From assembly GCA_022825725.1 (NCBI GenBank), contig JAJDWE010000055.1, positions 28,919-92,918 on the forward strand: a stretch of DNA of 64,000 bases. The letters run 5' to 3'. This stretch comes from Gemmatimonadota bacterium (GTDB lineage: Bacteria; Gemmatimonadota; Gemmatimonadetes; Palauibacterales; Palauibacteraceae). The notes beneath the pieces are model-generated. The model had not been told where the DNA came from. It saw only the letters and a program-made list of their open reading frames with translations, and did not search any database. Shown one piece after another: positions 50,432-61,818 of this stretch. Within the stretch, counting starts at the first letter, position 1. Each line of letters begins with the position of its first letter. The translations under genes and the position numbers were made by a program.

Positions 50432-53400
50432 GTGGACGCCCGGCCGCGCGTGACCCCCCGGAGCAGCGTCGACTACGTCGAACTGCACGCGCACTCCGCC
50501 TACTCCTTTCTCGATGGGGCGTCGCGGCCGGAGGAACTCGCGGCGCGCGCGCTCGAACTGGACTATCCCGCGCTCGCGCTCACCGACCACGACGGGCTCT
50601 ACGGCTCGATGGAGTTCGCGCAGTTCGCCCGCGCCCACGGACTCCAGCCGATCACGGGCGCCGAACTCACCCTCGCCTCGCCGTTCGCCGCCGGAGACGT
50701 TCCCGCGGGAACGTCCGGAGGCTGCGCGCCGGCGGGACGGGCGGCGGAAACGGCCGACTGCCACGTCACGGTGCTGGCGGAGAGCGCGGCGGGATACGCG
50801 AACCTGTGCCGGCTCATCACCCGGGCGCACATGGAGAGTCCGCGCGGGGAACCCCGGCTCGACCTCGACGCGCTCCTCGAGCGGCCCGAGGGACTCATCC
50901 TCCTCACGGGGTGCCGCCGGAGTCCCCTTCTCACGGCGCTCGAACGGGGGACGGACGAAGCCGAGCGACTGGCGGGCCGCCTGCGCGACGCCTTCGGTCC
51001 CGGCAGCCTCTTCGTCGAACTCCAGAACAACGCGGTCCACGGCGACCTCGCGCGCGGCCGGGCGCTGAGCGCGCTGGCCGACCGGCTCCGCATCCCGGTC
51101 GTGGCCACGGGCAACGTCCACTACCACGTCGCCGACCGGCACCGTCTCCAGGACATCCTGGTCGCGATCCGGAACCGGACGACGGTCGACGATTCGCACG
51201 ACCTCCGCCGCCCCAACGCCTGCTTCCATCTCGCCTCGCCCCGGGAGATGGCGTGGCGCTTCGCGTCGCGGCCCGACGCGCTCCGCAACACGCGCGCGAT
51301 CGCCGAGCGCTGCCGGGCGTTCGATCTCACGGCCGATCTCGGCTACCGCTTCCCCGATTTCAAGGGGAGCGGCTTCGCCCCCGCCATGCGCGTACTCCAC
51401 CAGGTCTGCCACAGAGCGTTCGAGGTCCGCTACCCCCCCGGCAGCCGATACCGCCGCGAAGCCGAGGAACGGCTCGCCACCGAACTCGCGCTCGTCGACC
51501 GCCATGACCTGGCCGGGTTCTTCCTCGTCTATCACGACATCCTCGAACTCGCCCGGGAGGTCGCGCACCGCGTGCGGGGCGACTCGATGCCGCGCCAACT
51601 GCTCCCCCCCGGCCGCGGTCGCGGGTCCTCGGTCTCCTCCATCATCTGTTATCTGATCGGACTCTCCCACGTGGATCCGGTGCGGACGAACCTCTTTCTC
51701 GGCCGGTTCCTGAACGACGCCATGGAGAGCGTCCCGGACATCGACATCGACTTTGCGCGCGATATTCGCGAGGAACTGATCCTCGCGGTCTACGAGTGCT
51801 ACGGGTACGACCACGTCGGGCTCGTGTGCACCTTCCCCACCTACCGCACGCGCTCGATCGTGCGCGAACTGGGCAAGGCGCTCAGCCTCCCGGTCGGCGA
51901 CGTGGAAAAGCTGGCCAAGCTCGCCGAACCCGGAGAGGACGGGTTCATGGCCGAACTCGAGCGCATTCCCGGCCTCGAGGCGCGCGCGAACTCGCGGATC
52001 TGGCGGGCCTTCGCCGAACTGGCCGAGGAGATCAAGGGGCTCCCGCGGCACATCTCCCAGCATGTGGGCGGGATGATCATCTCGAGCCGGCCGCTGGTGG
52101 AGATCGTCCCGCTCGAGCCCGCCGCGTGGGAGGGGCGCGTCCTCTGCCAGTGGGACAAGGACTCCTGCGACGATGCGAGGTTCATCAAGATCGACTTTCT
52201 CGCGCTCGGAATGCTGTCGCTCGTCGAGGAGGCGGTGGAGACGATCCACGCGCGCCACGGCGAGGCCCCCGACCTCTCCCGCATCGACTACGAGGACGAG
52301 AGGATCTACGACCGCATCTGTTCGGGGGACACGGTGGGCCTCTTCCAGGTCGAGAGTCGCGCGCAGATCCAGATGCTGCGGCGGGTGCGGCCCCGGAACC
52401 TGGGCGACCTCGCGGTCCAGGTCGCGATCGTCCGGCCGGGTCCGATCGTCGGCGGGGCGGTCAACCCCTACGTCCGGCGGCGCGAGCAGCTGCGCAGGGA
52501 CCCGGACTATGTCGTCCCCTACGACCATCCGCTGCTCGAGGAAGTGCTCGGCGAGACGCTGGGCGTGATCATCTTCCAGGACCAGGTGCTGCAGGTGTGC
52601 AAGGCGCTCGCGGGCTTCAGCGACGGGCAGGCCGAGGGACTGCGGCGCGCCATGAGCCGCAAGCGCTCGCGCGAGGCGCTGCTGGGGTACTGGACGACGT
52701 TCCGGGACGGCGCGGCGGCGAAGGGGGTCGGCGGCCCCACGGCGAAGAAAGTGTTCGAGCAGGTCGTCGCGTTCTCGGAATTCGGGTTCCCGAAGTCGCA
52801 CGCGGTGGCGTTCGGGCTCCTCGCCTTCCAGTCCGCCTGGCTCCGCGACCGCTACCCGGCCGAGTACTACGTGGGGCTCTTCAACAACCAGCCGATGGGG
52901 TTCTATTCACTCGACGCGATCGGGCGCGACGCGCGCCGGCACGGGGTCGGCGTCCTGCTGCCGGATCTGAACGTCAGCCGGGTCGCCTGCACCGCCGAGG
53001 GGGACGATGTCCGGATCGGGCTCGGCATGGTCCGCGACTGGGGGACGGAGGCGGCCGAACTCGTGGTGGCCGAGCGCGAGCGCGGCGGACCGTTCGCGTC
53101 GCTGCCCGACTTTCTGCGCCGCACCCCGGCCGCGCTCAAGCGGGCCGCGATCGAGAACCTGATCTGGGTCGGGGGGCTCGACTCGCTGGGGATCGAACGC
53201 CGCGACCTGCTGTGGCAGACGGGGCTCTGGCTGGGTCCGGAGGCCGAGACGGAGGCGGAGCGCCGACGCCGCGAACTCGCGACGAACGCCGCGGGGCTGG
53301 GCGGGGACGCGTCGCCCGTCCGCGGACGGCGAAGCGCCGACCGCTCGGACCAGGGCCAGATCGAACTCGCGCTCGACGACCCCTGTGCGGATCTGCGGTT

Positions 53401-54046
53401 CGCGGGCACGCACGACATGGAGAAGATGATCGCGGAGTACCGCATCCTCTCCCTCGCCGCCTCGCTCCATCATCCGTTCGCGCTCGTGGGGGACCACCTG
53501 CCCGAGCGCACGGTCTCCTCGGCGCGCTTCCCCGATCTCCCCAACGGGAGCCGGGTCCGAGCGGCGGGGATCGTGGTGGCCCGCCAGCGCCCGCACACGG
53601 CCCGTGGATACATCTTCATCCTCATGGAGGACGAGTTCGGACCCATCAACGCGATCGTGAGGCCCGAGGTCTATCGGGAGTGTCGCGCCGCGATCCGCCT
53701 CGAACCCTTCCTCTACATCGATGGCGCGCTTCAGAAGGACGGCGCGACGTACAACGTGCTCGCCGAGGGGGTGTATCCCCTGCGCCTGAGTCCCGAACTC
53801 CGGCTGAGTCGCGAGACGGTCCCCGCCGTGGAGGGAGAGGCGGACACCGCGCCTGCTCCAATCGACCTGGACCCGGAGCCGGATCCTCTGACCCCCGCCC
53901 CGAACCGGATTCCGGCCGGCCATCGGATCGCGGCTGCGACCAACCGGAATCGGCTCGCCGAGCCGGATCCGTTCGCATATCTGGAAGCGCTGAGACGCGA
54001 CCCGCCCCCCACCATGAGCTGGGGCCGCGGCGGCGGCTGCCGTTGA
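50432..54046 (+). CDS. dnaE2: Error-prone DNA polymerase III alpha-type subunit DnaE2
   Basis: PHP domain YVELHAHSAYSFLDGASRPEELAARALELDYPALALTDHDGLYG. Polymerase core (..GRGSSVSSIICYLIGLSHVDP.., ..PDIDIDF.., ..GLPRHISQHVGGMII..). OB fold near the C-terminus. The imuB context fits. A roughly 100-aa low-complexity C-terminal tail follows. Confidence 0.93.
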   Translation: MDARPRVTPRSSVDYVELHAHSAYSFLDGASRPEELAARALELDYPALALTDHDGLYGSMEFAQFARAHGLQPITGAELTLASPFAAGDVPAGTSGGCAPAGRAAETADCHVTVLAESAAGYANLCRLITRAHMESPRGEPRLDLDALLERPEGLILLTGCRRSPLLTALERGTDEAERLAGRLRDAFGPGSLFVELQNNAVHGDLARGRALSALADRLRIPVVATGNVHYHVADRHRLQDILVAIRNRTTVDDSHDLRRPNACFHLASPREMAWRFASRPDALRNTRAIAERCRAFDLTADLGYRFPDFKGSGFAPAMRVLHQVCHRAFEVRYPPGSRYRREAEERLATELALVDRHDLAGFFLVYHDILELAREVAHRVRGDSMPRQLLPPGRGRGSSVSSIICYLIGLSHVDPVRTNLFLGRFLNDAMESVPDIDIDFARDIREELILAVYECYGYDHVGLVCTFPTYRTRSIVRELGKALSLPVGDVEKLAKLAEPGEDGFMAELERIPGLEARANSRIWRAFAELAEEIKGLPRHISQHVGGMIISSRPLVEIVPLEPAAWEGRVLCQWDKDSCDDARFIKIDFLALGMLSLVEEAVETIHARHGEAPDLSRIDYEDERIYDRICSGDTVGLFQVESRAQIQMLRRVRPRNLGDLAVQVAIVRPGPIVGGAVNPYVRRREQLRRDPDYVVPYDHPLLEEVLGETLGVIIFQDQVLQVCKALAGFSDGQAEGLRRAMSRKRSREALLGYWTTFRDGAAAKGVGGPTAKKVFEQVVAFSEFGFPKSHAVAFGLLAFQSAWLRDRYPAEYYVGLFNNQPMGFYSLDAIGRDARRHGVGVLLPDLNVSRVACTAEGDDVRIGLGMVRDWGTEAAELVVAERERGGPFASLPDFLRRTPAALKRAAIENLIWVGGLDSLGIERRDLLWQTGLWLGPEAETEAERRRRELATNAAGLGGDASPVRGRRSADRSDQGQIELALDDPCADLRFAGTHDMEKMIAEYRILSLAASLHHPFALVGDHLPERTVSSARFPDLPNGSRVRAAGIVVARQRPHTARGYIFILMEDEFGPINAIVRPEVYRECRAAIRLEPFLYIDGALQKDGATYNVLAEGVYPLRLSPELRLSRETVPAVEGEADTAPAPIDLDPEPDPLTPAPNRIPAGHRIAAATNRNRLAEPDPFAYLEALRRDPPPTMSWGRGGGCR

Positions 54047-54111: not shown

Positions 54112-55488
54112 ATGCCGCAGCAAAGCCTTGTCGTCGGGGCCGTCGCGCACGCGGCGGCGGGTCTCATGCTGTTCGCCGGGAGCGTTCCGGCCAGCGCGCA
54201 GTCCGAGGCGGGGACGGTGGTGTGCGTCGGAAGCGAGCTGTCCACGCCGCGGACACCGGATCCCGACCGCCGCTTCGGCTGGGAGGGCATGGCCGTCGTC
54301 TACCGGTCCGATGTGGCGCTCGCCTACCGGGTCGGCGTCCCGCTCGATGGCCGGCAGCGTGTGGAACGAGCCCTGCGCTCGGAACTCGGCGACCACCCGG
54401 AAGTTTCGTGTATCTGGTCGAACCGGGGTGACCATCACGTCGCGATCATCAGGTATACGTCGGCGATCCGTCTCGCCCCGACGTCGGATCCGGACGGCTC
54501 CGTGTTCGAGCGCCTTGCCATCGGATTCGGGGCGAGCGCGGAGGCGGCCGAGACGAACGCGACGACCGGCAACGATCATTTCGCGAGGTATTACGACGGG
54601 GGCGGCTACGAAGTCCTCGCCCGGGAGAGCTGGGGCGTCGAGGAAGGCGGCGCGGCGCCCGGGACGGCGGACCGGCCCCCGGCACAGGTATTCGAGGTGT
54701 TCGCCACGTTCCGCGACTGCGCGTTCTGTCCGGAGCTGGTCGTGGTGCCGCCGGGAACGTTCACGATGGGCTCCCCGGAGTCGGAGGAGTTCCGGGGAGC
54801 CGTCGAAGGTCCGCAGCACTCGGTGACGATCGGGGCTCCATTCGCGGTCGGGGTGCATGAAGTCACATTCGCGGAGTGGGACGCGTGCGTGCGGATGGGA
54901 GGGTGCCGCTACACGCCGGCCGACCGGCGCTGGGGCCGCGAGCGTCGTCCGGTGATCCACGTGAGTTGGGAGGACGCGCAGGCGTACGTGTCGTGGCTTT
55001 CGGGACTGACGGGACAGCGGTACCGGCTTCCGAGCGAGGCGGAGTGGGAGTACGTGGCGCGGGCCGGCACGGTGACGGCCCGGCATTGGGGGGAGGACTT
55101 GTCGGACCTGTGCCGCTACGCGAACGGCGCCGCGCGGCGCCCCGGGCGGCTCCGGGTCGCGGGTCTCTCCGGCTACGTGGCCGACGGACCGTGTGCCGAC
55201 GACTACGGAACCACGGCGCCGGTGGGGTCCTTCGCGCCGAACGCGTTCGGGCTGTACGACGTGCTGGGGAACGTGTCGGAGTGGACGCAGGACTGCTGGA
55301 ACGACAGCTACGCGGGCGCGCCGACGGATGGGAGCGCCTGGGAATCCGGGGACTGCGACCGTCGCGTCCTCCGCGGCGGATCCTGGTTCGTCACCGCGTG
55401 GTTCCTCCGCTCGGCCAACCGGTCCGGAAATCTCCCCGACGCCAGGGACATGTACTACGGATTCCGCGTGGCCCGGACGCTCCCCTGA
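54112..55488 (+). CDS. Exported formylglycine-generating-enzyme (SUMF1/FGE-sulfatase) domain protein with an unknown N-terminal domain
   Basis: Signal peptide ..AAGLMLFAGSVPASAQ. A roughly 190-aa N-terminal domain of unknown family follows. The C-terminal FGE domain reads FTMGSPESE......HSVTIGAPFAVGVHEVTFAEWDAC, VSWEDAQAYVSWLS...GQRYRLPSEAEWEYVARAG, YDVLGNVSEWTQDCW, VLRGGSW, GFRVARTL. Confidence 0.85.
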   Translation: MPQQSLVVGAVAHAAAGLMLFAGSVPASAQSEAGTVVCVGSELSTPRTPDPDRRFGWEGMAVVYRSDVALAYRVGVPLDGRQRVERALRSELGDHPEVSCIWSNRGDHHVAIIRYTSAIRLAPTSDPDGSVFERLAIGFGASAEAAETNATTGNDHFARYYDGGGYEVLARESWGVEEGGAAPGTADRPPAQVFEVFATFRDCAFCPELVVVPPGTFTMGSPESEEFRGAVEGPQHSVTIGAPFAVGVHEVTFAEWDACVRMGGCRYTPADRRWGRERRPVIHVSWEDAQAYVSWLSGLTGQRYRLPSEAEWEYVARAGTVTARHWGEDLSDLCRYANGAARRPGRLRVAGLSGYVADGPCADDYGTTAPVGSFAPNAFGLYDVLGNVSEWTQDCWNDSYAGAPTDGSAWESGDCDRRVLRGGSWFVTAWFLRSANRSGNLPDARDMYYGFRVARTLP

Positions 55489-55525
55489 CGTCGTACGGCA
55501 TCGCCGAGCCGCGTCGTGGAGGAGG

Positions 55526-56320
55526 TCAGGTACCGGGCGTAGCTTCGAGCGTTTCCAGCCAGCGATAGCCGTGGGTCGGGACGTTCGGCGACCCGGTCAT
55601 GCCTTCGGGGAACATGTCGAACCTCTCGACGCGCAGGCGGTAGTCGACTTCGTGCCGAGGCTGGAAGCCCACGATCTCGCCGCGGTAGGGGGCGCCGTTG
55701 ACGACCTTGCAGTAACCCGGATGGCCGTCGCCGCACTCCACCCGATGGCGCTCGACCGAGATCTCCTCTTCGGTACCGGCTGCCATGGTCCTGGAGACGA
55801 CCTCGCTCGCCACGTACCGGCCATCGCCATACCGGCTGGTTTCCAGGAGGTAGTGGTAGCCGCCCTCGTATTCGAAACTGTTGATGAGGTCGTCGTACGG
55901 CGCGCCATCCACCACCGGGCAGAAATCATCGCTCCGGGCGCATATGACCCGCGCGGGACCCACCGAGAGGGTTGCAGGGGTGGATGGCGCCGGGGTCTTC
56001 TCCAGTTGCTCCAGCAGGCGGTATGCGTACGCGCCGGCGTCCTGCGGCGGTTCTTCCCCATCCCACGGATCGTACTTGCCGACCCGAAGTCGATAGTCGT
56101 AGCCGGCCTCGTACTCGAATCCCTCGATTCCGTCGTAGAACAACCCGCCGTCGACCACCATGCACGACCGCAGGCCCACGCCGTAACACTTGGCGAGGGT
56201 GGGGCCGACGGTCATCTCCACGACCTCGAGGTATGCGGGCTCGCCCGGTCCCGTGGAACCGCCACAGCCGGCAAGGACCAGGGCCGGGAGCAGAACGAAA
56301 GCAAAGCTTCTGCCGCGAAT
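55526..56320 (-). CDS. Triple-repeat lipoprotein (DUF4377-like repeats), probable ATT start
   Basis: Three copies of C-x(5-8)-C-x-VV(D/N)G....(I/L)xxF(E/Q)(Y/P)xxG/HxxDY/HYxL. Upstream of the first ATG (56221) the frame stays open and encodes (I)RGRSFAFVLLPALVLAGCGG, a lipoprotein signal. It begins at ATT 56320, 7 nt after AAGGAG. An in-frame TGA lies 6 codons further upstream. Confidence 0.7.
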   Translation of the reverse strand: MRGRSFAFVLLPALVLAGCGGSTGPGEPAYLEVVEMTVGPTLAKCYGVGLRSCMVVDGGLFYDGIEGFEYEAGYDYRLRVGKYDPWDGEEPPQDAGAYAYRLLEQLEKTPAPSTPATLSVGPARVICARSDDFCPVVDGAPYDDLINSFEYEGGYHYLLETSRYGDGRYVASEVVSRTMAAGTEEEISVERHRVECGDGHPGYCKVVNGAPYRGEIVGFQPRHEVDYRLRVERFDMFPEGMTGSPNVPTHGYRWLETLEATPGT

Positions 56321-56466
56321 GGGAGTGCTCCTTTCTCAACCGGTCTCCGATGACTCGACCGATAATCGTACCCGTCAGCCGCCCAGGGGTTCTCGCGCCG
56401 CGGACATCCGGTCCGCCCGATTCCGACCCCGGCATCGCGGCGGCCGCCTTTGTATCATGTCACACC

Positions 56467-56889
56467 ATGGAACGGCATACGGCAGGGGCCGGGCGCACGT
56501 CTGAACCCATCCACGAAGAGGAGCGGGAGACGGCGGGCCGCGGCGAGCCCCGAATCGTGGACAAGCCCTGGGGGCGCGAGGTGTGGTACGCCCACACGGA
56601 CCGCTACGCGGGGAAGATACTCGAAGTCGACAAGGGGCACGTCCTCTCGCTGCAGAAGCACCTCGTGAAGCACGAGACGATGCTGCTCCAGTCCGGGCGC
56701 ATGCTTTTTACGCTCAACGACGAAGTCTTCGAGTGGCTCCCGGGCGAGGTCGTCTCCATTCCTCCGGGGAACGTGCACCGCATGGAGGCGCTCGAGGACA
56801 GCGTCATCCTCGAGGTGAGCACGCCGGAACTGGACGACCTGGTGCGCCTCGAGGACCGCTACGGACGGGCCGGTCGGAAGGGCTGCTGA
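56467..56889 (+). CDS. Cupin-domain protein (mannose-6-phosphate isomerase type II-like cupin)
   Basis: KPWGREVWYAHTDRYAGKILEVDKGHVLSLQKHLVKHETMLLQSGRM.......EWLPGEVVSIPPGNVHRMEAL matches the ManC C-terminal cupin pattern (PWG...SLQ.H..R.E...v..G). Start at ATG 56467 within ORF 55972-56889. Confidence 0.75.
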   Translation: MERHTAGAGRTSEPIHEEERETAGRGEPRIVDKPWGREVWYAHTDRYAGKILEVDKGHVLSLQKHLVKHETMLLQSGRMLFTLNDEVFEWLPGEVVSIPPGNVHRMEALEDSVILEVSTPELDDLVRLEDRYGRAGRKGC

Positions 56890-56976
56890 CGGCTAACGAA
56901 GCGCCTCGAAGGTCCCGACTCCGACTCCGGCACCTGCGCCGTTGACCGTGTGCGGCACAATGGGGTATCTACGGGC

Positions 56977-59900
56977 ATGAAAAACAAGCATGCGCAGCAG
57001 TCGGACCTCGGCCCCCTGATCCGCGAGGTCGAATCGCGACTCCCGGACGCGCCCGGCGAAGCCGTCCGCAATCTCTCCCGCCGTCTCTTCAGCCGCGGCT
57101 ACGCCCACATCGCGGATGGACGTCCGGTGCGCGCTCTGGCCGACGATGTCGCAGCCCTCTACCGCCTCCTGGCCGGCGCCGCCGACGGCGAAATCGCGAT
57201 CCGCCTCGCCTGGGACGAGGACGATCCATCGCGCGGCGTCCTTCAGACGGTGATGGAGGACCGGCCCTTCATCGTCGACACGCTGCGCGAGTATCTCCAC
57301 TCGGCGGGGATCGACATCCCGCACCTGCTCCACCCGGTCGTCGTGGTGGACCGGGACGCCTCCGGCCGCGTGCTCGACATCCGCGACCATTCCGCCGAGG
57401 GCACGCGCGTATCGGTCGTCCACATCGTGCTCGACGACGCGCACCACGCCGAGGTCCGCGAGACGTTGGAAGCCGAGGTACGGCAGCGCCTCGAACTCGT
57501 GAGGGCGGTCACCGCGGACTTCTCCGCCATGATCGAGCAGGTGGGGACGCTCGTCAGCGAACTCGAGACCAAGCGGGTCGAGACGCCGTGGCGGAGCGCC
57601 GAATTCGAGGAGATCCAGGACCTGCTCCGGTGGCTCGTGGACCCCGGGTTCGTCTTCCTCGGCTATCGCGCGTACCAAATCGAGACGGACGACGCGGGCC
57701 GCGACTGGATCCGCGTCGACGAGGGAAGCGGCCTCGGGATCCTCAGGGACGACGACAAATCGAAATACTACGAACCCCGGCCCCTCGACGAACTCCCCGC
57801 CTACCTCCGCGCCCGGGTGCTGGGCGGCCCGCTTCTCATCATCTCCAAGACCAACGCCCAGAGTCCGATTCGGCGCAACGTCCGCATGGACTACGTGGGC
57901 ATCAAACGTCTGCGCCCGGACGGGACGGTGTACGGCGAGTACCGGTTCCTCGGTCTGTTCACCGCGAAGGCGTTCTCGCAGGACGCCTCCTCCATCCCGA
58001 TCCTGCGCCGCAAGCTGCGCGAGATCCTTCAGCTGGAAGCCGCGCCCCCGGGATCGCACGACTACAACGTCATCCTGGGGACGTTCAACTCGATGCCGAA
58101 GGAGGAACTGTTCCTCGCCTCGGTGGAGGAGATCCGCTCGGTCGTCGATGCGGTCATGGCGACCGGAGGCGGGGACGATGTGCGGGTCACGGCGCGTCCC
58201 GACCAGCTCGGCCGCGGCGTCCAGCTCATGGTCATCCTCCCCAGGACCCATTTCTCCGGGCAGGTGCGGAGGCGGCTGCAGACGGCGCTGATCGAGGCCT
58301 ACCGGGGGACGCTCCTCAACTACCACCTCGCGCTCGGCCAGGGCGACCAGGCGCGCCTCCATTTCTATCTGGCCCACGACCCGGACGAGGTGGGGGCGGT
58401 CGACCTCGACGCCGTCCAGGCCAAGGTCCGCTCGATCGTCCGCACCTGGGAGGAGCGCCTCGAGGACGCGCTCGATGCCGTCCACGGCCCTTCGCGGGGC
58501 CACGAACTCGCAACGCACGTCGTGCGCTTCTCGACCGGCTACCAGGCGGCGATGGACATCGACACCGCCATCGAGGACGTCGCGTGTCTCGCGCGGCTGG
58601 CCGAGACGGGCGAGAGCCAGGTGCTGCTGAAACGGTCCCTGACGGAAGCGGACGGACGGCACTACCAGTTGCGGCTGTATGCCCGGAAGGGTCACTACGT
58701 CCTGAGCGACGTGATCCCCACGCTCGAGAACCTGGGGCTCCGGGTGCTCGACTCGCTCCGCTTCACGATCCAGCTCAAGGATGAGACGCCCGACGCCACG
58801 GAGGAGACGTTCGCGGCGCGCGTCCAGTCCTTCGAAGCCGAGGCGCGACGCGCCGGCGACCTCGACATCGCGGCGGCGCAGGACCGGATCGGAGACATGC
58901 TGCGGGCCATCCGGGCGGGAGTCGCCGAAGATGACCGGCTGAACGAACTCATCGTGACCGCCGGTCTCACGTGGCCGGAGGTATCCGTCCTCCGGGCCTA
59001 TGCGGGCTACACCTTCCGCATCGGCGCCGTCGCCGCCCCCACCGGCGGCCAGTTTCCGCTCACGGCGTACCCCGACATCGCACGCTGCATCTTCCGTGCC
59101 TTCGAGGCGCGCTTCGATCCGGAGGCACAGGAGGGGGCGGCCGACACGATGCGGCATCTGAAGCGCGAGTTCGCGCGGGCGCTGGCTTCGGTGCGCGGGA
59201 TCGAGGACGACCGGACGCTGCGGCGGATGATGGAACTCGTCCACGCCACCGTGCGCACGAACCACTACCGGGGCGAGTTGCGCCGGTCACCTCTCCTCGC
59301 GCTCAAGATCTCGAGCCGCTCCGTCGACTTCATTCCGAAGCCGAAGCCGAAGCACGAGGTCTACCTGCGCGGGCCTCGGACGGAGGCCGCCCACCTGCGC
59401 ATGGACGACGTGGCGCGCGGCGGCATCCGGTGGAGCGACCGCTACGGGGACTTCCGGGTGGAAGTGCTCGGACTCGTGAAGACGCAGAGGGTGAAGAACG
59501 CCGTCATCGTGCCCGGCGGCGCGAAGGGCGCCTTCATCGTGAAGGGACTGCCGGATGAGCGCGAAGCGCGGCTTGCGGCGGGGCTGGACAGCTACCGGGA
59601 CTTCATTCGCGGGCTGCTGGAAGTCTCCGACGACGTCGTCGATGGCGAAGTGACGCAACCCCGGGGGATGGTGATCCACGACGGACCCGACCCGTACCTC
59701 GTCGTGGCGGCGGACAAGGGGACGGCGAAGAACTCGGATACGGCCAATGAACTCGCGGCGGAAGCGGGCTTCTGGCTCGACGACGCCTTCGCCTCCGGCG
59801 GATCGCAGGGGTACGACCACAAGAAAGAGGGAATCACGGCCCGCGGTGCGTGGGAATGCGTGAAGCGCCACTTCCGGGAAGCGGACATCGACTACGAGCA

Positions 59901-61818
59901 CGAACCCTTCACGGCGGTCGGGATCGGAGACATGAGCGGCGACGTGTTCGGCAACGGGATGCTGCTCAGCAAGCAGATCCAGCTCGTCGCCGCCTTCGAT
60001 CACCGCGACATCTTCCTCGATCCGAACCCGGATCCGGAGGCGTCGTGGGAGGAACGGAAACGGCTGTTCGAACTCCCGGCCTCGTCGTGGGCCGACTACG
60101 ACGCCGAGCTGCTGAGCGAGGGGGGTGGCGTCTACGACCGTACCGAGAAGCAGATCCACCTCTCGCCGCAGATCCGGGAGCGCCTCGGCATCGATCACGA
60201 GGAGATGAACGGGAACGAGCTGATCCGCGCGATCCTGTCAGCGCCGGTCGACCTCCTCTGGAACGGCGGCATCGGCACGTACGTGAAGGCGAGTTCGGAA
60301 CGCCACGCCGACGTCGGCGACCCGAGCGGCGATCCCACGCGGGTCGATGCGACGGGCATTCGGGCGCGCGTCGTGGGCGAGGGCGGCAATCTCGGCTTCA
60401 CGCAGCGCGCGCGGGTCGAATACGCGCTCCGCGAGGGGAGCATCAACACGGACGCCGTCGACAACTCCGCCGGGGTCGACATGTCCGACCACGAGGTCAA
60501 CCTCAAGATCCTCCTCGGCGCGCCGCTGTCGCGCGGGGGGATCGATTACGAGGCGCGAAACGATCTGCTCCGGGAGTGCACGGACGAGGTCGCGTGGAAG
60601 GTGCTCCGCAACACGTACAATCAGAGCCTCGCGATCAGCCTCGACTACATCCGGGCGCGGCGCGCCCCCGCCGCATTCCGCGAGGTGATCCAGCGCTTCG
60701 AGCGGGAGGGGATCCTCGATCCGGCCCTCGAATACCTGCCGGCGGGCGAGGAACTCATCGAACGGGAGAACGTCGGGGCGCACCTCACGAGGCCGGAACT
60801 CGCGACGGTCATGGCCTACTCGAAGCTCCACCTCAAGCATGCGCTCACGGAGTCCAGCGTGTCGCGCGACCCGGCGATGATGGAACTGGTGGAGGACTAC
60901 TTTCCGTTCGGGGCGCTGAAGGAGGTCGAGACGTCGGACCTCGAGGAACACCGGCTGCGGCCGAACATCTCGAGCATGCTGCTGACGAACCGCTTCGTGG
61001 ACCGCATGGGCGCCACGAGCCATATCCGGCTCATGGAGGAGACCGGCCGCGCCGCCGCGACCGTCGCCCGCGCCTGGTACGTCGCGTCACGGATCGCGGA
61101 CGCCGAGGACCTGTACGAGCGGCTGCGCGTCGCCGACGTCCGGATGCGGAGCGGGGCGCAGAACGAGTGCTACCTCGCCATGGCCGACGCGCTGACGCGC
61201 GCGACTCGATGGCTCCTGCAGCGGACCAACCCCGGCGAGCCGATCAGCGAGGCGATCGAGTGGCTGCACGACCCCGTGCGGGGGGTCCGCGACGCCCTGC
61301 CGAAACTGCTCACCGCAGAGCGGCGGGAACGTTTCGAATCCACCTGCTCGCTGCACGAGATGGACGGACTCGATCCGGAGGGCGCGGCGCAGCTCGCGAC
61401 CTTCCGCTACGTGGACGAACTGCTGCCGATCGCCAGCCTCATCCGCGAAACGGGTGCCGGCACGCGCGAGGTCGGCGCCGTGTACTTCGGCCTCGCCGAG
61501 GAGATCGACTTCCCATGGCTGCGGAGCCGCGTCTACTCGCAAGCCACGGACGATCCGTGGGACCAGAGGGCGGCGCGCATCCTCGTCACGCGACTCGAAC
61601 TCGCGCGTTCCCGCATGGCGGCGCAGATCATCGCCCGTGCCGAGGCGTCGACGACGGAAGATGCGATGAGATCCTTCCGGCGCCGGAACGCCGTGGGGTT
61701 GAGCCGAATACGGAACGTGATCGCCGACGTCCGGAGCACGGGAGCGGAACTCCCCGGGCTCGTCGTGGCCGTCGATGCCGTCAACGATCCGGGGATCCTG
61801 GAACCCCCGGACCGCTGA
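56977..61818 (+). CDS. gdhB: NAD-specific glutamate dehydrogenase, large (about 180 kDa, GdhB-type)
   Basis: About 1613 aa from ATG 56977. The central catalytic region reads ..RGGIRWSDRYGDFRVEVLGLVKTQRVKNAVIVPGGAKGAFIVK... and ..AADKGTAKNSDTANE......GGSQGYDHK..GITARGAWE..... It then runs ..VGIGDMSGDVFGNGMLLS and NGGIGTYVKAS, typical of Bac_GDH large enzymes. Confidence 0.95.
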   Translation: MKNKHAQQSDLGPLIREVESRLPDAPGEAVRNLSRRLFSRGYAHIADGRPVRALADDVAALYRLLAGAADGEIAIRLAWDEDDPSRGVLQTVMEDRPFIVDTLREYLHSAGIDIPHLLHPVVVVDRDASGRVLDIRDHSAEGTRVSVVHIVLDDAHHAEVRETLEAEVRQRLELVRAVTADFSAMIEQVGTLVSELETKRVETPWRSAEFEEIQDLLRWLVDPGFVFLGYRAYQIETDDAGRDWIRVDEGSGLGILRDDDKSKYYEPRPLDELPAYLRARVLGGPLLIISKTNAQSPIRRNVRMDYVGIKRLRPDGTVYGEYRFLGLFTAKAFSQDASSIPILRRKLREILQLEAAPPGSHDYNVILGTFNSMPKEELFLASVEEIRSVVDAVMATGGGDDVRVTARPDQLGRGVQLMVILPRTHFSGQVRRRLQTALIEAYRGTLLNYHLALGQGDQARLHFYLAHDPDEVGAVDLDAVQAKVRSIVRTWEERLEDALDAVHGPSRGHELATHVVRFSTGYQAAMDIDTAIEDVACLARLAETGESQVLLKRSLTEADGRHYQLRLYARKGHYVLSDVIPTLENLGLRVLDSLRFTIQLKDETPDATEETFAARVQSFEAEARRAGDLDIAAAQDRIGDMLRAIRAGVAEDDRLNELIVTAGLTWPEVSVLRAYAGYTFRIGAVAAPTGGQFPLTAYPDIARCIFRAFEARFDPEAQEGAADTMRHLKREFARALASVRGIEDDRTLRRMMELVHATVRTNHYRGELRRSPLLALKISSRSVDFIPKPKPKHEVYLRGPRTEAAHLRMDDVARGGIRWSDRYGDFRVEVLGLVKTQRVKNAVIVPGGAKGAFIVKGLPDEREARLAAGLDSYRDFIRGLLEVSDDVVDGEVTQPRGMVIHDGPDPYLVVAADKGTAKNSDTANELAAEAGFWLDDAFASGGSQGYDHKKEGITARGAWECVKRHFREADIDYEHEPFTAVGIGDMSGDVFGNGMLLSKQIQLVAAFDHRDIFLDPNPDPEASWEERKRLFELPASSWADYDAELLSEGGGVYDRTEKQIHLSPQIRERLGIDHEEMNGNELIRAILSAPVDLLWNGGIGTYVKASSERHADVGDPSGDPTRVDATGIRARVVGEGGNLGFTQRARVEYALREGSINTDAVDNSAGVDMSDHEVNLKILLGAPLSRGGIDYEARNDLLRECTDEVAWKVLRNTYNQSLAISLDYIRARRAPAAFREVIQRFEREGILDPALEYLPAGEELIERENVGAHLTRPELATVMAYSKLHLKHALTESSVSRDPAMMELVEDYFPFGALKEVETSDLEEHRLRPNISSMLLTNRFVDRMGATSHIRLMEETGRAAATVARAWYVASRIADAEDLYERLRVADVRMRSGAQNECYLAMADALTRATRWLLQRTNPGEPISEAIEWLHDPVRGVRDALPKLLTAERRERFESTCSLHEMDGLDPEGAAQLATFRYVDELLPIASLIRETGAGTREVGAVYFGLAEEIDFPWLRSRVYSQATDDPWDQRAARILVTRLELARSRMAAQIIARAEASTTEDAMRSFRRRNAVGLSRIRNVIADVRSTGAELPGLVVAVDAVNDPGILEPPDR

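What the first reader, a model, noticed from the sequence alone, without database searches (positions are those of the whole stretch)
56222..56334. Lipoprotein signal peptide accessible only through an ATT start codon behind a perfect AAGGAG
Seen in sequence: upstream of the first ATG of the triple-repeat protein (56221) the frame stays open for 33 codons. It encodes (I)RGRSFAFVLLPALVLAGCGGSTGPGEPAYLEVVE, a textbook lipoprotein signal with an Arg-rich n-region, a hydrophobic core and an LAGC lipobox. The stretch is bounded upstream by an in-frame TGA. It contains no ATG, GTG or TTG until the GTG at 56227, which lies downstream of the signal peptide, just 2 codons before ATG 56221. An ATT codon (56320-56318) sits 7 nt downstream of AAGGAG (56333-56328).

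Established knowledge: AUU initiation is rare but real, as in infC. The Cys-rich repeats of the mature protein fit an extracytoplasmic location.

Inference: the gene most likely initiates at ATT. A gene caller restricted to ATG/GTG/TTG would truncate it and lose the export signal.
Basis: partly seen in the sequence, partly recalled or inferred. Interest (0 to 1): 0.5.

Follow-up and report, generated by a model that had tools for sequence, protein, structure and literature searches.

The report
Lipoprotein gene that starts at ATT
A surface-lipoprotein gene of a marine Gemmatimonadota bacterium (Candidatus Palauibacter) begins at the rare start codon ATT, a state kept across a clade of related species, and public annotations therefore cut off or over-extend its export signal.

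Summary
On the minus strand an in-frame TGA (56338-56336) is followed by AAGGAG (56333-56328), 7 nt, and ATT (56320-56318). Then comes IRGRSFAFVLLPALVLAGC, which meets the lipoprotein signal-peptide rule. No ATG, GTG or TTG occurs before GTG 56221.

The motif alone is not significant: 12 of 100 shuffles give at least one. The orthologues decide the case.
- In about 55 orthologous loci the same position, 6-7 nt after a GGAGG-type motif, reads ATG (about 30), GTG (6), TTG (2) or ATT.
- ATT occurs in the window plus 13 independent assemblies. It is never ATC or ATA.
- The same genes encode internal Ile as 78 ATC, 5 ATA and 0 ATT.
- A close relative with the same leader has ATG exactly there.
- All ATT loci keep an intact signal peptide, with in-frame indels only.
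- Five have a stop 4-5 codons upstream.

It is truncated to 229-242 aa, including several RefSeq entries and the window's own gene, or extended to 277-306 aa.

Verdict: a real ATT-initiated triple-DUF4377 lipoprotein. It is a new member of a known kind (infC and pcnB type initiation) and of moderate interest.

The parts
56336..56338 (-). In-frame TGA stop 5 codons upstream of the ATT. It excludes any upstream start in this frame.
   Evidence: The same arrangement occurs in L003, L004 and L005, and L023 has a TAG 4 codons upstream.
56328..56334 (-). Shine-Dalgarno sequence AAAGGAG (core AAGGAG at 56333-56328), 7 nt before the start codon.
   Evidence: A GGAGG, AAGGAG or GAGGAGG motif sits at the same distance in nearly all of the ~55 orthologous loci, whether the start is ATG, GTG, TTG or ATT.
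56318..56320 (-). ATT, the proposed initiation codon (read as fMet).
   Evidence: The orthologous position is ATG, GTG or TTG in relatives and ATT in 13 other assemblies. ATT is invariant here, although internal Ile codons of the same genes are 78 ATC, 5 ATA and 0 ATT.
56267..56320 (-). Lipoprotein signal peptide, residues 1-18: (M/I)RGRSFAFVLLPALVLAG.
   Evidence: The PS51257-type rule is met in all 15 ATT sequences tested (L054 has the same sequence as L006). AlphaFold2 models residues 1-25 as disordered.
56264..56275 (-). Lipobox L-A-G-C. Cys19 (56266-56264) is the predicted lipidation site and the mature N-terminus.
   Evidence: C19 is invariant in the 52-sequence alignment.
56222..56263 (-). 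Linker GGSTGPGEPAYLEV (residues 20-33), part of the mature protein. It is lost if translation is assumed to start at GTG 56221 or ATG 56215.
   Evidence: Y30 and E32 are nearly invariant or invariant across orthologues.
56213..56221 (-). GTG (56221-56219) and ATG (56215-56213), the first canonical codons. These are the starts used by the mechanical ORF list and by public annotation (229 aa).
   Evidence: The ATG is particular to the window; relatives have GTG (Val) there.
55526..56320 (-). Full coding sequence as proposed: 264 codons plus a TGA stop. It encodes a lipoprotein with three DUF4377 repeats.
   Evidence: Most orthologues are 260-265 aa and cover 100% of this reading.
55991..56212 (-). 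DUF4377 repeat 1 (residues 37-110), with Cys45 and Cys53.
   Evidence: Pfam PF14302, 66.4 bits against a cut-off of 25. The Cys residues are invariant.
55781..55972 (-). DUF4377-like repeat 2 (residues about 117-180), with Cys127 and Cys134.
   Evidence: BLASTP of repeat 1 against the rest of the protein, E = 5e-9. All-beta domain in the model.
55535..55762 (-). DUF4377-like repeat 3 (residues about 187-262), with Cys196 and Cys204.
   Evidence: BLASTP of repeat 1 against the rest of the protein, E = 3e-10. The Cys residues are invariant.
56321..56466 (.). 146-nt divergent intergenic region between the ATT and the ATG (56467, + strand) of a cupin (mannose-6-phosphate-isomerase-like) gene. It holds the leader and presumably both promoters.
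   Evidence: There is no Rfam match, no unusual folding (z = +0.68) and no sigma-70 consensus hit.

Best explanation
The gene at 56320-55526 (minus strand) encodes a 264-residue lipoprotein precursor whose translation starts at the ATT at 56320-56318.

Proposed mechanism:
1. The strong Shine-Dalgarno sequence AAAGGAG, 7 nt upstream, places the 30S subunit on the ATT.
2. Initiator tRNA reads AUU as fMet.
3. The product has an 18-residue Sec/SPII signal peptide. After lipidation of Cys19 the peptide is removed by signal peptidase II.
4. This leaves a membrane-anchored extracytoplasmic protein made of three small all-beta DUF4377 domains. Each domain carries a conserved Cys pair, probably forming a disulfide.

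Because the signal peptide is discarded, the start codon does not affect the mature protein. It only sets how much is made. ATT most likely keeps synthesis low and sensitive to IF3, as known for infC and pcnB in E. coli.

Shown here: the anatomy of the start region; the orthology of the ATT with ATG, GTG and TTG starts; retention of ATT against codon bias; and retention of the signal peptide in ATT lineages. Inferred: fMet initiation at AUU, export and lipidation, disulfides, and reduced or IF3-coupled expression.
For: 1. Anatomy: TGA, then AAGGAG, 7 nt, ATT, then a lipoprotein signal peptide, with no canonical start before codon 34.

2. Orthology: in about 55 loci the codon 19 codons before the lipobox Cys and 6-7 nt after the SD is ATG, GTG, TTG or ATT. 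L070 shares the window's leader and signal-peptide DNA and has ATG exactly there. L071 also has ATG there.

3. ATT occurs in the window plus 13 distinct assemblies (L001-L006, L010, L011, L015, L016, L023, L055, L056). Their mature proteins are 78-96% identical to one another. Further clusters show Ile at this position inside over-extended gene calls.

4. Selection for ATT as such.
- The codon is never ATC or ATA.
- Internal Ile codons of these same CDSs are 78 ATC, 5 ATA and 0 ATT.
- Window-wide the counts are 722 ATC, 61 ATT and 12 ATA.
- Only 33% of invariant-residue codons keep an invariant third base across these sequences.
- The three other invariant Ile columns are all ATC.

5. The upstream frame is closed by a stop 4-5 codons before the ATT in WIN, L003, L004, L005 and L023. 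L016 has no canonical codon upstream. Where the frame is open, the extensions are not conserved, and the same leader carries in-frame stops in ATG-start relatives L014, L020, L024, L049 and L050.

6. The signal peptide is under coding constraint in ATT lineages.
- The PS51257-type rule is met in all of them.
- Indels are in frame (L011 -3 nt, L015 +12 nt).
- Second codon positions change least: 109 pairwise differences, against 336 at first and 281 at third positions.

7. An extracytoplasmic location fits the protein. C19 and five of the six repeat Cys residues are invariant, and C127 is nearly so. The characterised DUF4377 protein CipA of Acinetobacter baumannii is predicted by SignalP to carry a lipoprotein (Sec/SPII) signal peptide (PMC9361855).

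8. AUU initiation with IF3 discrimination is established for infC and pcnB (PMC5499595). Proteomics has shown ATC and CTG starts in Deinococcus (PMC2830850).
Against: - There is no experimental evidence. The organism is uncultured, and nothing here shows the N-terminus, export or expression level.
- The motif in the single sequence is compatible with chance.
- SD-like motifs precede only about 18% of candidate starts in this window, against 10.6% of internal ATG, GTG or TTG codons. The organism therefore does not rely heavily on SD sequences.
- A GAGG lies 8 nt before ATG 56215, so some internal initiation cannot be excluded.
- The ATT loci are related by descent, so they are not 14 independent events.
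- The gene tree is a simple neighbour-joining tree of one short protein.
Confidence: 0.85

Rival explanations
1. Translation starts at the first canonical codon (GTG 56221 or ATG 56215), as in the public annotation. This gives a 229-231-aa cytoplasmic protein. The upstream signal-peptide-like stretch would then be a relic left after loss of the ATG.
For: This is what the mechanical ORF list and the public annotation give. A GAGG lies 8 nt upstream of ATG 56215.
Against: - A relic would decay. Instead all ATT assemblies, at 78-96% mutual identity, keep the frame, the hydrophobic core and an invariant lipobox Cys. Indels are in frame only.
- ATT is held against a strong ATC bias.
- The ATG at 56215 is Val (GTG) in relatives, and the linker residues Y30 and E32 upstream of it are conserved.
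- Three conserved Cys pairs fit an oxidising compartment better than the cytoplasm.
Confidence: 0.05
2. The ATT is a sequencing or assembly error, or a very recent inactivating mutation of an ATG in this one genome.
For: ATG to ATT is a single base change. The close relatives L070 and L071 have ATG.
Against: ATT is present in 13 other independent assemblies from different samples and technologies, including complete MAG chromosomes. These span a clade with up to 22% protein divergence.
Confidence: 0.02
3. Translation starts further upstream at a canonical codon, as in the 277-306-aa gene calls. Alternatively it reaches the signal peptide by recoding: a frameshift from another frame, or reinitiation after an upstream ORF.
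For: In L001, L002, L006, L010, L011 and L015 the frame is open upstream and callers chose upstream ATGs. A 169-aa ATG ORF in another frame overlaps the region in the window.
Against: - It is impossible in WIN, L003-L005 and L023 because of the in-frame stop 4-5 codons upstream, and in L016 because there is no canonical codon.
- The extensions differ in length and sequence, and the upstream ATG shifts frame between loci.
- An extension would bury the signal peptide 14-42 residues inside the protein.
- No in-frame upstream ORF ends at the TGA: the 12 codons before it hold no start.
- The overlapping ORF is an Arg/Pro-rich off-frame reading typical of 69% G+C DNA.
Confidence: 0.04
4. Initiation uses another near-cognate codon inside the stretch (CTG at codon 10 or 14) rather than the ATT.
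For: CTG can initiate at low efficiency, and two in-frame CTGs exist.
Against: These codons have no SD in front. They lie in the hydrophobic core, so the product would lack the charged n-region. They are not conserved as CTG across loci. The ATT occupies the exact position of the canonical start of the orthologues.
Confidence: 0.02

Closest known systems
AUU-initiated genes of E. coli: infC (IF3) and pcnB (poly(A) polymerase)
   Same: A non-canonical AUU start behind a Shine-Dalgarno sequence. The codon is conserved across related species rather than being a one-off. It is expected to be discriminated against by IF3 and so to limit or tune translation (PMC5499595).
   Different: The product here is an exported lipoprotein of unknown function, not a translation or RNA-metabolism factor. 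There is no obvious autoregulatory logic. The codon is not fixed in the family and alternates with ATG, GTG and TTG among relatives (at least 7 base changes on the gene tree). IF3 dependence was not tested.
Proteomics-proven non-canonical starts in Deinococcus (dnaA ATC, rpsL CTG; Baudet et al. 2010, PMC2830850)
   Same: Near-cognate starts recognised because orthologue N-termini only line up if a non-canonical codon is used. Automated annotation is wrong as a consequence.
   Different: Those cases have N-terminal peptide evidence, and this one has comparative evidence only. The codon here is ATT.
CipA of Acinetobacter baumannii (lipoprotein with META-META-DUF4377 domains)
   Same: A lipoprotein signal peptide followed by all-beta domains that include a Pfam DUF4377 domain (PMC9361855; Pfam hit).
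   Different: The protein here has three DUF4377-type repeats and no META domain. Each repeat has a conserved Cys pair. Nothing suggests complement or plasminogen binding. The similarity rests on the Pfam profile only.

Membership tests
Bacterial lipoprotein precursor (Sec/SPII signal peptide; PROSITE PS51257 rule) | Positively charged n-region (K or R within the first 7 residues) | tested here: met
   R2 and R4 in the window. One to three K/R residues in all ATT loci.
Bacterial lipoprotein precursor (Sec/SPII signal peptide; PROSITE PS51257 rule) | Uncharged hydrophobic core followed by the lipobox [LVI][ASTVI][GAS]C, with the Cys at position 15-35 | tested here: met
   FAFVLLPALV then L-A-G-C, with Cys at position 19. 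Maximum 8-residue Kyte-Doolittle mean is 2.98. The regular-expression form of PS51257 matches in all 15 ATT sequences. C19 is invariant in 52 homologues.
Bacterial lipoprotein precursor (Sec/SPII signal peptide; PROSITE PS51257 rule) | Prediction by a trained classifier (SignalP 6 or LipoP), and experimental lipidation and Lsp cleavage | not testable with these tools
   No such predictor is among the tools and there is no experiment. AlphaFold2 leaves residues 1-25 disordered, as expected for a signal peptide plus tether.
Non-canonical AUU translation initiation (infC/pcnB type) | No canonical start can yield the conserved N-terminus | tested here: met
   TGA lies 5 codons upstream, and the first ATG, GTG or TTG is at codon 34, after the signal peptide.
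Non-canonical AUU translation initiation (infC/pcnB type) | Shine-Dalgarno sequence at functional spacing from the AUU | tested here: met
   AAGGAG with a 7-nt spacer. The same SD and spacing are found in ATG-, GTG- and TTG-start orthologues.
Non-canonical AUU translation initiation (infC/pcnB type) | The AUU occupies the position of the canonical start of orthologues and is conserved as AUU, not merely as Ile | tested here: met
   ATG, GTG or TTG at the same position in about 38 loci. ATT in 14. ATC and ATA in none. Internal Ile codons are 78 ATC, 5 ATA and 0 ATT.
Non-canonical AUU translation initiation (infC/pcnB type) | Direct evidence of initiation (N-terminal peptide, initiation-site ribosome profiling or a reporter) and IF3-dependent repression | not testable with these tools
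   The organism is an uncultured MAG lineage, and no expression data are available here.
Pfam PF14302 (DUF4377) | Whole-protein score above Pfam's gathering threshold | tested here: met
   66.4 bits against a cut-off of 25, E = 2.1e-18, residues 37-108 covering the full profile 1-75. Repeats 2 and 3 match repeat 1 by BLASTP at E = 5e-9 and 3e-10 but were not reported as separate Pfam stretches.

The most novel reading that the evidence does not exclude
The ATT start may be a maintained regulatory device, not merely a tolerated weak start. It would couple synthesis of this envelope lipoprotein to IF3 activity, and so to growth state or temperature, in Palauibacter. Repeated switching between ATT, ATG, GTG and TTG would then act as an evolutionary dial for expression level. 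A broader version is that this lineage uses near-cognate starts unusually often. A second sub-lineage (L065, L068, L069) may start the same gene at ATC.
Probability: 0.15. Interest if true: 0.55.

Novelty: new member of a known kind. Interest (0 to 1): 0.4.

Why it matters
The main consequence is practical. One start codon makes a conserved envelope lipoprotein look cytoplasmic in public databases, or gives it a false N-terminus. This includes several RefSeq entries for Candidatus Palauibacter, so localisation and family alignments built on those entries are wrong.

Biologically, the case adds a well-supported, clade-wide example of AUU initiation outside infC and pcnB. Natural ATG, GTG and TTG variants of the same gene sit in the same sequence context. 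That set of variants is ready-made material for testing how start-codon choice tunes expression and how IF3 discrimination acts on an ordinary gene.

It does not reveal a new mechanism.

Tried and rejected
- Single-sequence statistics: AAGGAG-N7-ATT is not significant on its own.
- Structured leader or riboswitch: no Rfam match at E <= 1. Folding energy is no better than shuffles (z = +0.68). Leader length varies by deletions among relatives.
- Promoter and terminator consensus scan of 55400-56600: nothing found.
- Other non-canonical starts in the window were sought in two ways. One was SD plus ATT, ATC, ATA or CTG with no upstream canonical start. The other was long start-less open stretches in high-GC3 frames. 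Only the 56320 site is convincing. The rest are off-frame Arg/Pro/Ser-rich readings of G+C-rich DNA. The GC3 filter does not separate real frames well, so this is a weak negative.
- Function of the mature protein:
  - No NCBIfam hit.
  - No PDB sequence match.
  - Foldseek against PDB gives nothing below E = 0.5.
  - The afdb50 library was unavailable.
- My automatic start-finder mislabelled L028, L041 and L060 as CTG or ATC. Inspection shows ordinary ATG starts (MNATYFF, MRIGRF), and these were corrected by hand.
- (bootstrap with the BLOSUM distance calculator) timed out. It was redone with p-distances.

Full report
**1. The observation**

I read 55000-56700 on the minus strand and translated the frame. 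The layout is as follows:
- In-frame TGA at 56338-56336.
- GAA AGG AGC ACT CCC, which contains AAGGAG at 56333-56328.
- ATT at 56320-56318, 7 nt after the AAGGAG.
- CGC GGC AGA AGC TTT GCT TTC GTT CTG CTC CCG GCC CTG GTC CTT GCC GGC TGT, encoding (I)RGRSFAFVLLPALVLAGC.

The lipobox LAGC lies at 56275-56264. No ATG, GTG or TTG occurs until GTG 56221-56219. An ATG follows at 56215-56213. The count of 33 start-less codons is right. The mechanical ORF list starts the gene at GTG 56221, giving 231 aa. The extended reading is 264 codons, 56320-55526.

The extended N-terminus meets a PROSITE PS51257-type lipoprotein rule: K/R in the first 7 residues, an uncharged hydrophobic core, and [LIV]-A-G-C at position 19.

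From this sequence alone the motif is not beyond chance. AAGGAG-N7-ATT occurs once, against 0.12 expected, and 12 of 100 shuffles give at least one. AAGGAG itself is barely enriched, at 25 against 18.7 expected.

**2. What the protein is**

Pfam places residues 37-108 in DUF4377 (PF14302, 66.4 bits against a cut-off of 25). NCBIfam has no model for it. Repeat 1 matches two further segments of the protein at E = 5e-9 and 3e-10, so the triple repeat is real.

In a 52-sequence alignment C19, C45, C53, C134, C196 and C204 are invariant, and C127 is nearly so. That gives one lipobox Cys plus one Cys pair per repeat.

AlphaFold2 (mean pLDDT 86) models three all-beta domains and leaves residues 1-25 disordered. 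No solved structure is related:
- The sequence search against PDB finds nothing.
- Foldseek against PDB gives E above 0.5.

The only characterised DUF4377 protein I found is CipA of Acinetobacter baumannii. SignalP predicts a lipoprotein signal peptide for it, and it has META-META-DUF4377 domains (PMC9361855).

**3. Orthologues settle the start**

A protein search returned about 200 relatives, annotated as Gemmatimonadota or Candidatus Palauibacter. Most are 260-265 aa and begin M-R-T-R-S at exactly the position of the window's Ile. Several of the closest instead carry ..TPIRGRS.. or ..APIRSRS.. inside longer, mutually dissimilar N-terminal extensions.

I fetched DNA for about 70 loci from genome and metagenome collections and by exact look-up. 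I read the start region of each locus that holds the conserved VGPTLAKC motif. The codon lying 19 codons (16-25 in a few) before the lipobox Cys, and 6-7 nt after GGAGG, AAGGAG or GAGGAGG, is distributed as follows:
- ATG in about 30 loci.
- GTG in 6 (L009, L013, L014, L025, L044, L057).
- TTG in 2 (L066, L067).
- ATT in the window plus 13 distinct assemblies (L001-L006, L010, L011, L015, L016, L023, L055, L056). L054 has the same sequence as L006.

L070 has an 89% identical protein and the same shortened leader. It reads ..GAGAAAGGAGGACTCCG ATG CGC GGC AGA AGC TTC.. where the window reads ..GAGAAAGGAGCACTCCC ATT CGC GGC AGA AGC TTT... The ATT is therefore the orthologue of a canonical start codon.

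**4. Evidence that ATT itself is functional**

(a) It is not an error. The ATT assemblies come from different samples and methods, several are complete MAG chromosomes, and their mature proteins are 78-96% identical to one another.

(b) Upstream starts are excluded in several loci.
- WIN, L003, L004 and L005 have the TGA 5 codons upstream.
- L023 has a TAG 4 codons upstream.
- L016 has no canonical codon upstream.
- Where the frame is open, the extensions differ in length and sequence.
- The same leader DNA carries in-frame stops in ATG-start relatives L014, L020, L024, L049 and L050. The leader is therefore conserved as DNA, not as protein.

(c) The codon is always ATT and never ATC or ATA.
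- Internal Ile codons of these same CDSs are 78 ATC, 5 ATA and 0 ATT.
- Likely genes of the window use 722 ATC, 61 ATT and 12 ATA.
- Across the 14 ATT sequences only 46 of 139 invariant-residue codons keep an invariant third base.
- The other three invariant Ile columns are all ATC.

(d) The signal peptide stays under coding constraint in the ATT lineages.
- The lipoprotein rule is met in every one.
- Indels are in frame: -3 nt in L011 and +12 nt in L015.
- Second codon positions, which set hydrophobicity, change least: 109 pairwise differences against 336 and 281.

On a neighbour-joining tree of the mature protein the ATT loci fall in one clade, interrupted by ATG and GTG sub-clades. Parsimony needs 9 base changes at the start codon (7-10 over 50 bootstraps). 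Start-codon identity has thus flipped repeatedly while the SD and its spacing stayed put.

**5. Mechanism**

The best-supported reading runs in four steps:
1. SD-directed 30S binding.
2. fMet initiation at AUU.
3. Sec export, with Lgt and Lsp processing at Cys19.
4. A lipid-anchored three-domain envelope protein stabilised by disulfides.

Since the signal peptide is removed, the start codon changes only the amount of product. AUU is a poor, IF3-discriminated start in E. coli (infC, pcnB). In the extracts studied in PMC5499595 it was the most IF3-, temperature- and growth-phase-sensitive start codon. Low or IF3-coupled expression is therefore the likely consequence here, though that step is inference.

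The strong SD is notable because SD-like motifs are only mildly enriched at candidate starts in this window (18% against 10.6%). No RNA element was found in the 146-nt divergent intergenic region:
- Rfam gave no match.
- Folding was no better than shuffles (z = +0.68).
- No promoter or terminator consensus hits were found.

**6. Rivals**

- Downstream initiation, as in the current annotation, is contradicted by retention of the signal peptide and of ATT.
- Sequencing error is contradicted by recurrence of ATT in independent assemblies.
- Upstream starts or recoding are contradicted by the in-frame stops and the non-conserved extensions.
- The CTG codons at positions 10 and 14 lack an SD and would remove the n-region.
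- Some minor internal initiation at ATG 56215 cannot be excluded, because a GAGG lies 8 nt upstream.

**7. Annotation consequence**

Exact look-ups show the following:
- The window's own gene is on record only as 229 aa from ATG 56215 (P0121).
- RefSeq relatives WP_428278598.1 (231 aa), WP_310781994.1, WP_420614673.1 and WP_419860747.1 (229 aa) and WP_420463128.1 (242 aa) are truncated.
- Other members are over-extended to 277-306 aa.
- The 264-aa versions of the window, L003, L004 and L005 proteins, with Met at position 1, are absent from the collection.

**8. Comparison with what is known, and novelty**

Non-canonical AUU initiation is established for infC and pcnB. Near-cognate starts have been proven by proteomics in Deinococcus (PMC2830850). 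This case is a new member of that kind: a clade-wide ATT start on an ordinary exported lipoprotein, with natural ATG, GTG and TTG variants in the same context. It is not a new mechanism.

I found no other convincing non-canonical start in the window, but that screen was crude.

Interest is moderate at 0.4. Confidence that ATT is the true start is 0.85.

Noticed in passing
L065:~1560-1640; L068 and L069, same region: In the sub-lineage of P0016, P0017 and P0023 the orthologous start position reads GAT. The only shared candidate start is ATC two codons downstream (..GAGGGAGCAGGTCCC GAT CAT ATC AAA AAG TCC.., giving (M)KKSAVLFLLALVLTGC). It lies 14 nt from the GGGAG. Gene callers extended these genes to 291-355 aa from non-conserved upstream ATGs. 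This may be a second, independent non-canonical start in the same gene family.
   Followed up: partly
window 56321 (minus strand), and the same position in all loci: The base just before the start codon goes with the codon. It is A before most ATG and GTG starts (CCAATG, CCAGTG) and G or C before every ATT (CCGATT, CCCATT, CTGATT). It could reflect shared descent or a context effect on near-cognate initiation.
   Followed up: no
window 56321-56400 (minus strand); alignment: The window's subclade (WIN, L003-L005, L070) lacks about 45-60 nt of leader that is present in L071, L001, L002, L011, L016 and others. The deletion brings the in-frame TGA to 5 codons before the start. A block conserved across the clade (GAGAACCC..GAGCGGCTGAnGGGTAnGAT, about 56395-56355 in the window) may hold the promoter -10 region.
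   Followed up: partly
L015:~1990-2015: A 12-nt tandem duplication includes the start codon (ATTCTCACACGA ATTCGCACACGA). It gives two in-frame ATTs and a signal peptide longer by 4 residues.
   Followed up: no
L017-L022, L032-L044, L048, L049 (record titles): Many loci with orthologues 62-79% identical to the window's protein are titled 'Candidatus Latescibacterota'. The closest ones share the leader and SD context with the Palauibacter (Gemmatimonadota) loci. This is either mislabelled MAG taxonomy or gene sharing between phyla. I did not check which.
   Followed up: no
window 50432-54046 (+), 54112-55488 (+), 56467-56889 (+), 56950-61818 (+): The neighbourhood holds a DnaE2-type DNA polymerase III alpha (PHP, DNA_pol3_alpha domains), an FGE-sulfatase-domain protein, a small cupin (mannose-6-phosphate-isomerase-like) transcribed divergently from the lipoprotein gene, and a 1622-aa NAD-glutamate dehydrogenase. 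The cupin, the DUF4377 gene, the polymerase and the dehydrogenase stay together in relatives. The FGE gene moves or is replaced by two small ORFs.
   Followed up: partly
L066:~1560, L067:~310: Two relatives have TTG at the start position (CTC CCG TTG TGG.., ATC CCA TTG CGC..). Gene callers still extended both upstream to 280 aa, so mis-called N-termini in this family are not limited to the ATT lineages.
   Followed up: partly
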